From contig JBHGNT010000004.1 of assembly GCA_043228905.1 (NCBI GenBank), positions 3,782,001 to 3,846,000 of the forward strand: a stretch of 64,000 nt of DNA, read 5' to 3'. The DNA is from Azolla caroliniana. Its lineage: Eukaryota > Plantae > Polypodiophyta. Below, piece after piece: positions 10,070 through 35,321 of this stretch. The notes under the pieces were generated by a model that did not search any database, was not told the origin of the DNA, and saw only the letters and a list, made by a program, of their open reading frames with translations. The first letter of the stretch is position 1; the number at the start of each line of letters is the position of its first letter. The position numbers were made by a program, and so were the translations under genes.

Positions 10070-10960
10070 ATGTCCAACCACCGATTGCTAGCCATAATGC
10101 TATTAACTTGCATGCTAATGCCGATCCATCGCAATGCAGAAGCGATGCGAGCTTTACGGCACCATCGTGGTCTGCTAAGCAGTGGCATTGATGATCATGG
10201 TGGGGTTTCTGTGGATGCTACCCATGGAGGTGATCATGATCATGATCATCACCATGGCAATGGCAATGGCGGGCACGGCTCTCCTCCTCCGGTTCACGTG
10301 CGTATCCCGGGGGGTTATATCGACATCCCGGGGGAGGATGTGACCCCATCGGCTCCACTCACCGTCCGTGTCCACGGCCTCTCACCATCCTCTCCCGTGC
10401 ACGTGCACGTTCGAATCCCCGCACATGATTCGTCACCGGTAGTTGTCCGAGCCCGGCCCCGAGAAGAGGACCATGGCGAGCACGGTAATGGTAATGGTCA
10501 TAGTGATGGTCACAATGGACACGATGACCATCATGGCCCCCCAACTAGTCATTATAGTCAATGGCCAGGGATTGTCCTCAGCCCACCCCCAGAAGAGGAG
10601 AACCACAATAACCTTGGTCATGGTAATGATCGTGATGGAGGAGATGAGACTCACGATGGTCATAGTTCCCAAACTAGTCATCATGGACAATCTTCTCTTC
10701 CCGTAGTGGTTCGCGTCCCACCACAAGATGAGAACCATGGTGATCGTGGTCATCAGACTGGTAATGGTGATGGAGGCAACGAGCATCACGACAATCATGA
10801 TTCCCCAACTAGTCATCATGGTCAAGTGTCGCCTGTTGTCGTCATTGTCCGCGTCCCACCCAAGGAAGAGGAGAAACATGGTGATCATGGTCATGATGGA
10901 GGAGACAAGGACCATGAGGGTCAAGGTTCCCCAACTAGTCATCATGGTCAAGAAGGGTGA
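10070..10960 (+). CDS. Secreted His/Gly/Asp-rich repeat protein of unknown family (copy 1), 296 aa, intronless
   Basis: Hydrophobic N-terminal signal peptide, about 44 His by hand count, a Pro/Val core shared with 34857-35321, four ~44-aa repeats ending (P/Q)TSH(H/Y)(G/S)Q, and an upstream TATA box. Confidence 0.85.
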   Translation: MSNHRLLAIMLLTCMLMPIHRNAEAMRALRHHRGLLSSGIDDHGGVSVDATHGGDHDHDHHHGNGNGGHGSPPPVHVRIPGGYIDIPGEDVTPSAPLTVRVHGLSPSSPVHVHVRIPAHDSSPVVVRARPREEDHGEHGNGNGHSDGHNGHDDHHGPPTSHYSQWPGIVLSPPPEEENHNNLGHGNDRDGGDETHDGHSSQTSHHGQSSLPVVVRVPPQDENHGDRGHQTGNGDGGNEHHDNHDSPTSHHGQVSPVVVIVRVPPKEEEKHGDHGHDGGDKDHEGQGSPTSHHGQEG

Positions 10961-11039
10961 CATGGACATCTCACTAATAAGAGGACAGGAAGATCCCTAA
11001 AAGTTCCATCCTTGGGCTATGACTATCTTTAGGTAGCCT

Positions 11040-11675
11040 TCAAATAACTTGTATCTCGTAGTTGAAATCAATGTTAATTTCTTGACCTTAATGTTATTCT
11101 CTTCCTTATTTATTTCTATGATTTCCTCGAAGAAATTATGCTATAGATAATATTTCCAAGTTTCTCTACGCACAGTTGCTTTGACAAGTGAGCTTGAAGT
11201 TAAACCATTAAACACATTGCACGATTCATTTTTCACACATTTCATGAAAAACAGCCCATCCATAGTTTTCTTAGATATACCTTCAAGAATGAGAAGTATA
11301 TTCTCTGCGTTCCATCTTATTCCACTTTTCAACTCTTTCTTTCCCATGAAGAACAAATTTCTATTGCTAATTGTTAGCAAATAAACTAGCTAGAATGTTG
11401 ATGCTTGGAAGTGGATTGATCAAGAGGAAGAAATGTTCATAGAATACATACAACAATTTGAAGACCCAAGGAAGTATTTTCATATGCCCGAGATTTCACA
11501 TTTTAAGAAAGTTTGCACACTTATGACATTGATATTTTTATGTGTCTTGCTTATGGTGCCATTAAGACAAGTTCAGTATGCATTGACTGGAGAGTTTGTA
11601 TAATTTTCATTGTTTTTTATGGGTTTTCACCTTAATTTGAGGTTTCCCATTGGTAATTTAATATATTACTAAAAC
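11040..11675 (+). mobile_element. LINE 3'-end fragment
   Basis: The terminus gggttttcaccttaatttgaggtttcccattggtaat...ttactaaaa matches the reverse complement of 36615-36690. A-rich tail. Confidence 0.55.
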
Positions 11676-31700: not shown

Positions 31701-32596
31701 TCTCAAAAGCAAAAGGATTCGTTTCAGACTACCAACCTGATGGCCGGCCACCCGTGTCCTCCACCACCGCCCCCCTGCCGGAGAAATGGAAGATCAAGAT
31801 CCCGGGCGCCCCCGATGTGACCGCCTCCCCACCCGAGGCTCTCCGGGGCGCCTCGGAGATCCGGGAAGTTGTCCGCGAGTTCGGGCGGGCCGCCCGCAAC
31901 GCGAAGCTGGCGGGCTTCGATGGGGTCGAGATCCACGCGGCCCACGGCTACCTCCTCGACCAATTCCTCAAGGATGGGATCAATGATCGCACCGACAAAT
32001 ACGGCGGCTCCATCCCGAACCGGTGCCGTTTCACACTGGAGGTCGTAGCGGCCGTGGCCTCCGAGGTGGGCGAGTCCCGGACCGCCCTCCGGATCTCACC
32101 CGTCATCGACCATTTGGGGGCCGTTGATTCGGACCCCGTCGCCCTTGGCCTCCACTTGATCTCCGAGCTCAATGAGAAGCGCCTCGCGTACCTCCACATG
32201 ACGGAGCCGAGGTACACTCGTGAAGGGCTCCAAGAGATGGCTCCCCCGGCGGGGAATGTTTGCGGGATCCTTAGGGCCGCGTATCGGGGCCCGATGATGT
32301 TGAGCGGTGGCTACACTCGCCGCACCGCGTGCGAAGCCGTCCGGTCGGGAGCCGCCGATCTCATCTCTTTCGGCCGCCTCTTCATATCTAATCCCGACCT
32401 CCCCCTACGCTTCGCCATTGACGCCAAGCTCAACCCATACGATCGCGCCACATTCCTCACACACCACCCCGTGATCGGCTACCTCGACTACCCGAAGCTT
32501 AGAGCGTGCGACGTGGCACGAGGCGATTGGTCGGCTTCGCCGGGCCTCTCCCAAATCATATCCCAAATGGTTGATGTAGATGTAGAGAGAGCTTGA
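28792..32596 (+). CDS. OPR: 12-oxophytodienoate reductase / Old Yellow Enzyme family flavoprotein, 4 exons (28792-28907, 29388-29528, 31027-31157, 31728-32596), 418 aa
   Basis: [96 protein letters not shown] junctions in phase (1257 nt). Confidence 0.93.
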
Positions 32597-34856
32597 CATG
32601 TGACATAGACAGAAAAAGTAGACCAAGATTCCATCAATCCAATGGATTATCATTCAACTAAATTTTAATCACATTAGCTTTCTTCCTTTTTAACTCATAG
32701 ATAGAAAAATTCATATGTTTTCAACATTACCAAGGTGTATATAATTTATCTAATTGATATAATAGAGGGTCAATATTTTATTTTCTTATTATTTGTTATT
32801 TTTTATTCCTATTAATATGAACCATTAAGTTCGAAAGTGATATAATATCGGACTTTTTGCATGGGGCAATGTTTCCGAAAATTCAACAAAACTCTTAAAC
32901 ATGTCTATTCATGTGAAGATTTGACGTAATTAAAGTCGAATCTTGCCTATCTTTGTACGTTGCATCCAACCTTGTTTCCGAAGATTCAACGAAAAAGTCG
33001 GACCTTTTTCGAACCTTGTGGATTCTTGTACTTCATGGCTTCGGAACGAAGATTCCACCACCGAGAAGTTGAACCATGTATCCTAGGATTCAACCCATGC
33101 TATGAAGGGAACAAGGAAAAGGCTATTGCTTTAATATTTAAGATGTAAGATTAATAGGATATGAAACTATACGTGATTTTAATGTGGGGTATTACACTCA
33201 CTACAATGCTACATTACCAACCTATAATTGAATACATATATATACACACATACAACCATATACCATATGTTTATATATTGAAATCAATGAGCATGACATT
33301 GATGTTCTCATTGCACATACACAAAATACATGATGAATCTTGTAATTCATGATCATTGTCCACATCCAATACTCATGCATTGGTTTCAAAACGACCAAAA
33401 TTTTAACCAAAATTACTCTTATTATATTACTAATGTTGGACCCCTAGAGGAGGGAACTACCTTAGATGGATCTGGGAATATCCGCTTGTAGCCCCAAACT
33501 AGGAGTACAAATGTTTTCGGAAATACGCTTACACCTAATGCCTTCTTAAAAAACAAAAACCAAACTACAGGACAAAATGTTTCGGAAATATGCTTCCACT
33601 AATGCCTTCTTCAAAAATAAGTTACAAAAAGAAGACCAATCCTCCTGCATTTATAATTTTATGGTTAGAACTTAGATGGGTATCACTTTTAAGATGACCC
33701 AAAAATCTCGCAAATTTAGGCCGTTTGGGAAGTGTCGAAATTTAAAAAGAATATAACGTTGGACCTATCGATGCATAATTTCTACAAATAAATGGGTACC
33801 AAAAACGTTTTCACTCTTGACAAAAAGTTAACCAATGTATGTAAATGCATGCTTTGATGTAAAGTTTGAGTTAAATGGATGAAGAAAAGGCCCAACGAAC
33901 TAAGACAAATATACCTTTGATTCTACAAAAGTGAAGTGAAATATTGGCTAGGTGTTTTTTCTTCGTTATCTTTACCTATAAAGATTGGCTAGGGTTGTTC
34001 GCACGACTTTACAACATTGATTGTAATATTGGACTCCTTTGTATATTGCGTTTGGCCACTTTACTTTTAATACCAATGGGGGATATTTTTTCACGAAAAA
34101 AAAAGTGAAAATCAAATACATATGTGTACGAATGTATTTATTTAAAGCCTAATAAAATAAGAGACAAATACCTTTGATACTACAAAAGTAAAGAACAAAT
34201 ATCATTATAACGTATAAAAATGTTGAGTCACCATCATCAACCTTCTCGTCTTACTTGAAATCATGGGCACTATATCATAATGAGAGGATTAATGGGAGAA
34301 ACATTAGGGCACATATGAGAAGGAAACATTGTGCTCTTTTTTACTTGGCATATGAAAGAAGGAAATGTATAAGACAAGTCTCCCAACGCCGTCCAAAAAG
34401 ATTTTAACTCATATAAAGACCTCCAACGTGGAACATGCCAAACATTAAGTTCTCGACAATTCCAATTTATCAAGATCACACAATGAATAATATTATTTCG
34501 TCGTGAATTCGTAATGTACCCGTCCGACCAATTTTAATTTATCGAGCACATAGAGAATACATTATATTTCTTCGGGAAACTTACTGAAAAGATCCCATGG
34601 GGATTGAGTGAACACACAATTGTTTTTTATTTATGTGAGACAAAAGAGAAATAGATGTGAAAAATGTTGTGTTTGTTGGTCCTAAAGAGTATTTTGTTAT
34701 TTTTTGATGATCCACTCCCCAACCTAGTGGTGAGCCTACTAACAAAAGAGGGAGATGGAAATCATGGTGCTATAACTCTTGGTAAACTAAGAAAAAATGA
34801 TGTTTCACCTACCCAATAAGATGATGATCCACACAAAAATCCATGACTAGCAACCA

Positions 34857-35321
34857 CTAATCATGGTGCTCATGACCATGACCATGACCATGATCATGGT
34901 TGTCCTCTTCTTGGGGTGGGACGTGAACAACCACGGGCGAAGATTTATGGTCGGGCACTCGGACATGGACGGGGGAGGATGGGGTGAGTCCGGGGACACG
35001 GATTGTGAGAGGGGTCGACGGGGTAATGTCGGCACCTGGGACATCAATGTAACCTCCCGGGACACGCACGTGAACCGGAGGAGGAGGAGAGTCATGGCTA
35101 TGGCCTTTACCATGATGACCATGCTCATCATTTCCACCGGTACCGTCGACCGAAACCCCCTCATGATCATGTCCATGTCCATGGCTACTACTTTCCGATA
35201 GCACCCGACCTCGAAGATGAGCTCCATGAATGTTTCGAGGAAGTGTCGTGGCGGTAGCGAGTAAACATAGTAGGGCGGCCAAGAGGACGAAGGTGAGGTC
35301 CATCCTGAAGCTCATCATCAT
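34857..35321 (-). CDS. Secreted His-rich protein of unknown family (copy 2), 154 aa, intronless; paralogue of 10070-10960
   Basis: Signal peptide (LTFVLLAALLCLLATATT), GVSVD motif, and core SPPPPVHVRVPGGYIDVPGADITPSTPLTIRVPGLTPSSPVHVRVPDHKSSPVVVHVPPQEED aligning with copy 1. TATA-like tatatatt at ~35366-35373. Confidence 0.85.
   Translation of the reverse strand: MMMSFRMDLTFVLLAALLCLLATATTLPRNIHGAHLRGRVLSESSSHGHGHDHEGVSVDGTGGNDEHGHHGKGHSHDSPPPPVHVRVPGGYIDVPGADITPSTPLTIRVPGLTPSSPVHVRVPDHKSSPVVVHVPPQEEDNHDHGHGHGHEHHD

What the first reader, a model, noticed from the sequence alone, without database searches (positions are those of the whole stretch)
10070..35321. Candidate new family of secreted His-rich modular proteins with a conserved Pro/Val core domain
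Seen: two intronless ORFs about 24 kb apart on opposite strands (10070-10960, 34857-35321). Both have a signal peptide, a His/Gly/Asp linker, a GVSVD motif and a strongly conserved ~60-aa core SPPPVHVR(I/V)PGGYID(I/V)PGxD(V/I)TPSxPLT(V/I)RVxGLxPSSPVHV..R(I/V)PxHxSSPVVV..PxEED. Signal peptides and linkers have diverged while core changes are mostly conservative (I/V), which suggests purifying selection. The mature proteins have no Cys and copy 1 is about 15% His. I do not recognise this core as extensin, AGP, GRP, dehydrin or nodulin. Inference: an apoplastic/cell-wall protein in which alternating V-H-V-R beta-strands self-assemble and poly-His/acidic linkers bind Zn/Cu/Ni/Fe. It could serve metal sequestration, metal-crosslinked wall or mucilage material, or antimicrobial defence.
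Basis: partly seen in the sequence, partly recalled or inferred. Interest (0 to 1): 0.85.

Follow-up and report, generated by a model that had tools for sequence, protein, structure and literature searches.

The report
Fern histidine-rich secreted beta-repeat protein family
Two genes in this fern DNA belong to a small, unnamed family of likely secreted proteins whose conserved core of short proline-bounded repeats sits between histidine-rich stretches, a layout predicted to let them bind metals and stick together outside the cell, though neither has been tested.

Summary
Both ORFs are real paralogous genes (296 and 154 aa) in a leptosporangiate fern. Relatives exist in unnamed collections: 9 loci from 6 assemblies, at least 4 paralogue groups, with orthologues of both copies shown by flanking DNA. 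The 54-codon core has dN/dS 0.04-0.19 in 12 of 12 pairs, indels keep the frame, and an upstream block is shared between paralogues. No Pfam, NCBIfam or PDB-sequence family matches, and no named plant or prokaryotic protein is a relative.

The core is better read as four P-V-x-V-R-V-P heptads plus a YxDxP strand than as V-H-V-R alternation: Arg, Pro and Val are the constant residues, His only in two strands. An RxLx motif after the signal peptide suggests pro-protein cleavage. Linkers keep 20-27% His while their sequence drifts, and calculated net charge flips near pH 6.

Best reading (about 0.35): a secreted, pH- and metal-responsive sticker-and-spacer matrix protein, working like suckerin or Nereis jaw protein and closest among plants to metallohistins. 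It is not an extensin, AGP or PRP. Function, location, metal binding and self-assembly are all inferred. A real new sequence family with an unproven mechanism: interest 0.45.

The parts
10070..10960 (+). Copy 1 coding sequence, 296 aa, single ORF
   Evidence: orthologues L007/L008 by flanking DNA
10070..10144 (+). Copy 1 predicted signal peptide (aa 1-25, A-E-A before the likely cut)
   Evidence: hydropathy and reading by eye; SignalP not run
10166..10177 (+). Copy 1 RxLx/RxxL motif (aa 33-36), candidate subtilase pro-protein site
   Evidence: motif definition in PMC13082318; cleavage inferred
10178..10279 (+). Copy 1 His/Gly/Asp linker containing GVSVD (10202-10216)
10280..10471 (+). Copy 1 conserved core: four Pro-bounded heptads and a YxDxP strand, ending in an acidic patch
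   Evidence: dN/dS
10472..10957 (+). Copy 1 C-terminal extension: His/Gly/Asp spacers with three degenerate repeats of the last heptad plus acidic patch (about 10565-10693, 10691-10825, 10829-10957)
   Evidence: self-blastn 68-70%; profile domains; dN/dS 0.38 against L007
9899..9928 (+). Upstream block shared by copy 1, copy 2 and the distant paralogue L009; CATGC and TATA-like motifs follow within about 70 bases
34857..35321 (-). Copy 2 coding sequence, 154 aa, single ORF
   Evidence: orthologue L001 by 1.7 kb of flanking DNA at 81%
35244..35321 (-). Copy 2 predicted signal peptide (about aa 1-26)
   Evidence: hydropathy; AlphaFold helix 4-24; SignalP not run
35196..35207 (-). Copy 2 RxLx motif (aa 39-42)
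   Evidence: cleavage inferred
35088..35195 (-). Copy 2 His/Gly/Asp linker containing GVSVD (35145-35159)
34905..35087 (-). Copy 2 conserved core (aa 79-139)
34860..34904 (-). Copy 2 His-rich tail
35578..35645 (-). Conserved upstream block of copy 2, kept in L001, L002 and L005 and overlapping the family-wide block
35512..35544 (-). Second conserved upstream block of copy 2 with CATGC and GTAC
   Evidence: meaning untested

Best explanation
These are two members of a fern-restricted gene family whose conserved core is under purifying selection, and they likely encode secreted pro-proteins that would act as a pH- and metal-responsive matrix protein outside the cell. Inferred steps: the signal peptide is removed, a subtilase trims the pro-segment at RxLx, and the mature chain is mostly disordered. 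It would be cationic and soluble in acidic secretory or wall conditions and lose its charge near pH 6. The Pro-bounded Val/Arg heptads would then pair into short beta-sheets between chains, while the His/Asp spacers bind Zn, Cu, Ni or Fe and add cross-links. Copy 1 has extra heptad-spacer repeats and so a higher valency. The likely outcome is a wall, surface or mucilage layer that stiffens and buffers metals.
For: Shown: intact orthologues and paralogues in 9 loci. Core dN/dS 0.04-0.19 in 12 of 12 pairs, and 0.13-0.15 in 2 of 2 partial-core pairs with L009. 32 of 40 coding gaps are multiples of three against 13 of 54 flank gaps. Four heptads in 14 of 16 sequences and three in the other 2. Copy 1 grew by repeating a heptad-spacer unit, and linker length varies 37-59 aa, as expected of a modular polymer. 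Linker His stays at 0.20-0.27 in 10 of 10 complete linkers, while simulated point mutation at 0.45 changes per site takes it to about 0.10. Calculated charge goes from +13 to -10 (copy 2) and +22 to -26 (copy 1) between pH 4.5 and 7.5. RxLx is present in 13 of 16 sequences (12 by script, L001 by eye; two misses lack the N-terminus). Both AlphaFold models call the same five short strands. By analogy from papers: suckerins are [Pro-M1-Pro-M2]n with Pro limiting beta-sheet size (PMC9999432); Nereis NVJP-1 is His/Gly/Asp-rich and turns beta-rich with pH and fibrillar with Zn; designed Val/His/Asp/Ser alternating octapeptides form beta aggregates (PMC4674085).
Against: No experiment shows secretion, location, metal binding or assembly. 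The structure models are low confidence (mean pLDDT 52 and 57, pTM 0.21 and 0.35). The heptads have only 5 residues between prolines, against 10-11 in suckerin M1, and Pro can block aggregation. The core is conserved residue by residue including its loops (23 of 61 columns invariant), which fits a folded domain or a binding surface as well as a polymer. Signal-plus-linker dN/dS between orthologues is 0.63-0.90, and His codons are mostly CAT in both copies (30 of 44, 19 of 22), so repeat slippage could maintain His without selection for metal binding. There is one Tyr in the core and no Cys, so no evident covalent cross-link. Sequence pairs are related and not independent, and the core's borders were drawn from these sequences.
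Confidence: 0.35

Rival explanations
1. A soluble metallohistin-like chelator: the core is a small folded beta domain that anchors or oligomerises the protein, and the His linkers scavenge or deliver metals in the apoplast or at a microbial interface (nutrition of a symbiont, or withholding from pathogens).
For: His 14-20% in mature chains; tight residue-level conservation of the core; alder metallohistins sequester Zn, Ni, Co, Cu, Cd and Hg in nodules (PMC11534348 passage); CATGC and GTAC motifs in conserved promoter blocks (their link to iron and copper regulation is recalled).
Against: CATGC and GTAC occur 1.4 and 1.0 times per 500 bases in the window at large. The extra heptads in copy 1 are not needed for a simple chelator. 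No symbiosis or metal-response data were obtained.
Confidence: 0.22
2. A cationic pectin-binding chaperone or wall adaptor: at wall pH the His linkers and the Arg face of the strands bind polyanions, for example to promote borate bridging of RG-II as His-rich AGP stretches do.
For: Net charge +7 to +22 at pH 4.5-5.5 for the two copies; Arg conserved in the heptads; polyhistidine and His-rich stretches of AGP17/18/19/31 promote RG-II dimerisation at pH 2.5-5.5 (PMC10707938 passages).
Against: Asp+Glu (11-17%) nearly balance His, unlike AGP31 with pI 9.1; no AGP bias.
Confidence: 0.12
3. A spore, gametophyte or desiccation-stage protective or storage protein deposited outside the cell or in the vacuole.
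For: Hydrophilic, Gly/His-rich, probably disordered; a conserved ATGCATGC-type element upstream of the copy 2 group (its likeness to the RY maturation element is recalled).
Against: No dehydrin or LEA Pfam match in 8 of 8 members; strong residue-level selection on the core is more than a storage protein needs.
Confidence: 0.1
4. A precursor of a signalling or antimicrobial peptide, cut by subtilases, with the core or the His/Gly linkers as the active product.
For: Signal peptide, RxLx motif, variable pro-region and conserved C-terminal part are the layout of peptide precursors (PMC13082318 passages); Gly/His peptides such as shepherins are antimicrobial (recalled).
Against: The conserved part is 54 residues, Cys-free and internally repeated, longer than known modified peptides (own knowledge); no peptide-family Pfam match.
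Confidence: 0.1
5. A silica- or mineral-templating protein like sorghum Siliplant1 or sponge glassin.
For: His/Asp-rich and Pro-rich blocks, a signal peptide and RXL motifs are all described for Slp1 (bioRxiv 10.1101/518332 passages).
Against: Slp1 is basic (pI 9.28, 13% Lys) and binds silica through Lys; these proteins have 1-2% Lys and turn negative above pH 6.
Confidence: 0.07
6. Not functional genes: microsatellite-derived open frames or pseudogenes.
For: CAT/GAT/GGT-rich linkers produce long shadow ORFs on other frames; the copy 1 orthologues L007/L008 stop about 20 codons early.
Against: Core dN/dS, frame-keeping indels, intact ORFs across paralogue groups and conserved promoters.
Confidence: 0.02

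Closest known systems
Metallohistins of Alnus glutinosa nodules (AgNt84/Ag164; Gupta 2002, Pawlowski 1997, seen only as cited in PMC11534348)
   Same: Plant His-rich proteins that bind several divalent metals (passage); Gly/His-rich with a signal peptide (recalled).
   Different: No sequence relation found; as recalled they are short and lack a conserved Pro/Val/Arg core and repeats; nodule-specific, whereas expression here is unknown.
Squid suckerins (PMC9999432, section 3.4.4 passages)
   Same: Block design of beta-prone modules bounded by Pro and separated by Gly-rich spacers; His-linked pH dependence.
   Different: Animal, unrelated in sequence; M1 is 10-11 residues of Ala/Thr/His, M2 is Gly/Tyr/Leu; here the strands are 5 residues of Val/Arg and the spacers His/Gly/Asp. 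Analogy only.
Nereis jaw protein NVJP-1 (PMC9999432 passage)
   Same: His/Gly/Asp/Glu-rich with GH repeats; pH- and Zn-triggered beta assembly is the behaviour proposed here.
   Different: 27% His, 36% Gly, 7% Tyr, no Pro/Val core; unrelated in sequence.
Extensins, PRPs and His-rich AGP31 (hydroxyproline-rich glycoproteins)
   Same: Secreted, Pro-containing; an SP3-4 followed by VH precedes the core in both window copies; His-rich stretch as in AGP31.
   Different: Composition biases far below those of HRGPs, SP3-5 not conserved (3 of 16 sequences), no Tyr cross-link motifs, no Cys-rich PAC domain.
Siliplant1 of sorghum (bioRxiv 10.1101/518332 passages)
   Same: Signal peptide, H/D-rich blocks next to Pro-rich repeats, RXL motifs, predicted disorder.
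   Different: Lys-rich and basic; no sequence match; silica binding is through Lys.

Membership tests
Extensin (cross-linking) | Repeated Ser-Pro3-5 motifs and PSKY bias (45% threshold recalled from MAAB) | tested here: not met
   PSKY 18-23% in 15 of 16 sequences (36% in the fragment P0006); SP3-5 once or twice in 3 of 16
Extensin (cross-linking) | Tyr cross-link motifs (YxY, VYK and similar; recalled) | tested here: not met
   0 in 16 of 16 sequences
Classical AGP | PAST bias (45% threshold recalled) | tested here: not met
   23-32% in 15 of 16; 47% only in the core-only fragment P0006
Proline-rich protein (PRP) | PVYK bias and PPV-x-K type repeats (recalled) | tested here: not met
   PVYK 18-24% in 15 of 16; motif count 0 in 16 of 16
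AGP31-type His-rich chimeric AGP | His-rich stretch after the signal peptide | tested here: met
AGP31-type His-rich chimeric AGP | Lys-rich Pro domain and Cys-containing PAC domain (PAC recalled) | tested here: not met
   No Cys in mature chains, Lys 1-2%, no Pfam match
Metallohistin | Secreted Gly/His-rich plant protein (composition recalled) | tested here: met
   His 14-20%, Gly 14-18% in full-length mature chains; hydrophobic N-terminus
Metallohistin | Sequence homology to AgNt84/Ag164 | tested here: inconclusive
   No named protein among hits; no direct pairwise comparison, as the sequence was not in hand
Metallohistin | Binding of Zn, Ni, Co, Cu, Cd, Hg | not testable with these tools
   needs IMAC, ITC or ICP-MS
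Glycine-rich protein / dehydrin / LEA | Pfam family match or dominant Gly repeats | tested here: not met
   Gly 11-16% of full-length chains; no Pfam family at E<1 in 8 of 8 members
Siliplant1-type silicification protein | Basic pI with Lys-rich repeats | tested here: not met
   Lys 1-2%, charge negative above about pH 6 against pI 9.28 and 13% Lys
Suckerin-type block protein (works-like only) | Beta-prone modules bounded by Pro, alternating with Gly-rich spacers | tested here: met
   heptad pattern in 16 of 16 sequences; strands in both low-confidence models; module length differs
Suckerin-type block protein (works-like only) | Self-assembly into nanoconfined beta-sheets | not testable with these tools
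   needs CD, FTIR, X-ray scattering
HxH zinc catalytic amyloid (designed peptides) | HxH on an alternating strand, conserved across the family | tested here: not met
   V-H-V-H strand only in copy 1 and P0005, 2 of 16; HxH requirement from PMC4674085
Any solved fold | Structural match of the core | tested here: inconclusive
   model pLDDT 57 is too low for a verdict

The most novel reading that the evidence does not exclude
A fern lineage has independently evolved a suckerin- or worm-jaw-like protein material: a secreted block polymer whose Pro-bounded Val/Arg strands and His/Asp spacers set into a metal-cross-linked beta-sheet network on a pH shift, standing in for the Tyr-cross-linked extensin scaffold. 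One paper finds no extensin in Azolla and one in Salvinia (bioRxiv 10.1101/2022.12.15.520549, passages); this matters only if the host is a water fern, which was not established.
Probability: 0.15. Interest if true: 0.8.

Novelty: new variant of a known kind. Interest (0 to 1): 0.45.

Why it matters
It adds an unannotated, selected domain to the fern secretome and is small enough (60-aa core, 110-aa mature chain) to express and test directly. If it assembles with pH or metals it would be a plant counterpart of His-based animal biomaterials and a candidate for metal sorption by fern surfaces. If it is only a soluble chelator it extends metallohistin-like chemistry to ferns with a new anchor domain. 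Lineage-restricted secreted families are common in plants, so the interest rests on the untested mechanism.

Tried and rejected
No whole genome is held for this window, so copy number in the host is unknown. Pfam: 0 families for both proteins at E<=1; 1 of 8 members with a chance hit at E 3.3. NCBIfam: 1 of 8 members at E 0.014, treated as chance. PDB sequences: 5 hits, all E>=1.4. Longer relatives (294-2000 aa): none among 7989 scored, weak evidence. P0008 matches only the signal region through a repeat and lacks the core; dropped. Prokaryotic genomes: 1 of 92 candidates passed, L010, a 22-residue match on the strand opposite a longer gene; rejected as chance. Viral contigs: 0 of 33. Atlas: the window sequence could not be read; P0003 and P0005 gave no usable hit by features and only sub-threshold structure rows. 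Fold searches of the core model: best Z 3.0 of 48161 chains, and no Foldseek match at E<=0.001; uninformative at this confidence. Four-copy complex prediction: no verdict, score 0.02. Sequencing runs: no RNA holder listed; two runs added by species label. Copy 1 had no cover in X1 beyond one unrelated 38-base piece and X2 laid nothing; neither shows absence of expression. The catalytic-amyloid idea was dropped as a family function (2 of 16 have the motif). One of 302 control tiles scored above the shared promoter block, through a gappy unrelated alignment. Paper searches for four core motifs found 0 papers; searches on His-rich fern or Azolla proteins listed nothing on this family by title or abstract start. 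Earlier scan notes: nothing by sequence, words or relatives.

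
Full report
Observation. The window holds two uninterrupted ORFs at the stated places: copy 1 at 10070-10960 (+, 296 aa) and copy 2 at 34857-35321 (-, 154 aa). 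Both lie in local GC peaks. They match each other at E 6e-40 within the window and their 61-residue cores are 74% identical. His is 14.9% and 14.3%; the single Cys of each is in the N-terminal hydrophobic stretch. A profile search of all six frames finds no third copy in the window. The Met-rich ORFs on the opposite strand are shadows of the CAT/GAT/GGT codons.

Host. Neighbouring genes are ordinary plant genes: an OPR-type flavin reductase, a neutral invertase and Snapin. The best named relatives of the OPR are from Adiantum and Ceratopteris at about 60%. In a quick tree of 28 rows (the window's OPR and 27 of the 120 listed hits, chosen by me to span lineages) it falls in a 12-row group (support 96) whose named members are all Adiantum or Ceratopteris, with Psilotum outside and a long end branch. 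So the host is a leptosporangiate fern. Its gene density would fit a small-genome water fern, but that is inference and was not tested.

Relatives. A word search found 3 relatives among 275 candidates. An unfiltered HMMER search of 1.84 billion representatives found 4 at E<=0.001, of which 3 carry the core. None bears a name beyond 'hypothetical protein'. The collection behind holds fern, lycophyte, moss and seed-plant proteins, so the family looks restricted to one fern lineage, with the caveat that short genes may be unannotated. A metagenome scan gave 9 loci from 95 candidates, in 6 assemblies by contig prefix. Flanking DNA identifies L001 as an orthologue of copy 2 (1733 aligned bases at 81%) and L007/L008 as orthologues of copy 1. 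L001, L005 and L007 share one assembly prefix, so one organism has at least three paralogues; L009/P0007 is a fourth, more distant group (tree, mostly weak support).

Selection. Counting by a Nei-Gojobori script, the 54-codon core has dN/dS 0.04-0.19 in 12 of 12 pairs (Fisher p 0.003 or lower) and 0.13-0.15 over 29 codons in 2 of 2 pairs with L009. The signal-plus-linker region gives 0.24-0.90, and 0.63-0.90 between orthologues. In six coding alignments 32 of 40 gaps are multiples of three, against 13 of 54 in three flank alignments; the pairs are not independent. Upstream, a block of about 70 bases is nearly invariant among copy 2, L001, L002 and L005. A block of about 30 bases is the best local match in 6 of 6 promoter pairs; shuffles reached the score 1, 7, 15, 49, 0 and 15 times in 500, so only some pairs are significant alone. 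These are functional genes with likely shared regulation.

Expression. In run X1 (same species label; RNA status a guess) contigs join across two GT-AG gaps in the neighbouring OPR gene, which indicates spliced RNA in the run. A 1359-base contig lies on copy 2 at about 92% identity with indels, while the bins on either side of the gene have no depth. Its inserted letters at one site total 18 and, read by hand in frame, give the pro-segment seen in P0003. So a close paralogue or homoeologue of copy 2 is probably transcribed. Transcription of the two window copies themselves is not shown; 30 contig rows were not displayed.

Anatomy. After the hydrophobic N-terminus comes RxLx in 13 of 16 sequences, the motif cut by SBT6.1/S1P and SBT3.5 (PMC13082318, passages). 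A His/Gly/Asp linker of 37-59 residues holds G-V-[S/Y]-V-D. The core is internally repeated: heptads of the form P-V-x-V-R-V-P at offsets 0, 22, 35 and 47, with YxDxP at 9; 14 of 16 sequences have four and L009/P0007 three (pattern tuned by hand). Invariant columns are mostly Pro, Gly, Val and Arg; His is invariant in the first heptad only. Copy 1 and its orthologues add two or three heptad-plus-acidic-patch units separated by His spacers. Linker His stays at 20-27% in 10 of 10 complete linkers, above the 95th percentile of point-mutation simulations (0.16-0.18 at 0.45 changes per site); slippage of CAT repeats could also do this. Calculated net charge changes sign near pH 6. AlphaFold gives low confidence for the whole protein (pLDDT 52) and the core (pLDDT 57); both call five short strands, with the first hairpin best supported.

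Mechanism. I commit, at about 0.35, to a secreted sticker-and-spacer matrix protein: trimmed at RxLx, soluble while protonated, assembling through short Pro-limited strands as charge falls or metals bind the His spacers. Shown: coding status, selection, modular repeats, composition. Inferred: secretion, cleavage, disorder, assembly, metal binding, site of action. The analogues are suckerins and NVJP-1 (PMC9999432, passages). Against it, the strands are half the suckerin length and the loops are as conserved as the strands, which suits a small folded domain; hence the soluble metallohistin-like rival at 0.22, then pectin chaperone, protective protein, peptide precursor and silica template.

Comparison with known families. 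It fails the composition and motif tests for extensin, AGP and PRP (thresholds and motifs recalled), lacks the Cys domain of AGP31 and the Lys of Siliplant1, and has no Pfam, NCBIfam or PDB-sequence match. It meets the compositional description of metallohistins, for which I saw only a review passage and reference lines; homology was not shown. I therefore rate it a new variant of a known kind: a secreted His-rich plant protein with a core domain not in the libraries searched.

Literature limits. Ten searches were run. I read passages only, of PMC11534348, PMC4531530, PMC4674085, PMC9999432, PMC13082318, PMC10707938 and bioRxiv 10.1101/518332 and 10.1101/2022.12.15.520549; all other papers were seen as listings. 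The motif search found 0 papers. Subscription journals, fern genome annotations and bioRxiv supplements were not seen; the tables of the fern HRGP preprint could list these proteins in its residual class.

Verdict. Observation confirmed, interpretation partly supported, interest 0.45; the bold reading, a plant metal-set beta-sheet material, has probability 0.15 and would merit 0.8.

Noticed in passing
L007 1-3608 against window 5783-7474 and 9911-11803: In L007 the copy 1 region comes before the stretch matching window 5783-7474, on the same strand; in the window it comes after. A local rearrangement between relatives or an assembly error.
   Followed up: partly
L007 936-938 and L008 1347-1349: Both copy 1 orthologues end at a stop about 20 codons earlier than copy 1, while the downstream DNA still resembles the tail.
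   Followed up: partly
L008 1-765: The 5' part lacks the signal region and instead holds a GC-rich ORF on the other strand with a weak GIL1/IRKI C-terminal match; likely a chimeric contig.
   Followed up: partly
window 29500-32600: OPR-type flavin reductase gene; run X1 has spliced joints and two sequence classes (about 99% and 92%), suggesting paralogues or homoeologues; long branch in the tree.
   Followed up: partly
window 531-5028 (-): Snapin gene in at least two exons; an AG microsatellite lies in the ORF upstream of the last exon's match.
   Followed up: no
window 16227-18804 (+): Exons that look like an Exo70 exocyst subunit (recalled from the sequence; no Pfam hit on the two fragments).
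   Followed up: no
window 53226-56806 (-): Alkaline/neutral invertase gene (PF12899).
   Followed up: no
window 43854-49319 (-): Degraded LINE-like element: weak DUF4283 match and endonuclease-like fragments read by eye.
   Followed up: no
window 50344-50533: A 190-base self-complementary element; a related sequence lies upstream of the family gene in L005 (1-150, 83%), probably a MITE-like repeat.
   Followed up: no
window 52067-52342, 25902-26051, 58656-58770: Near-perfect two-copy tandem duplications (96-100%), recent events or assembly artefacts.
   Followed up: no
window 11596-11674 and 36619-36696: An 80-base sequence at 81% identity lies 0.6 kb downstream of copy 1 and 1.3 kb upstream of copy 2 in opposite orientation; probably a dispersed repeat.
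   Followed up: no
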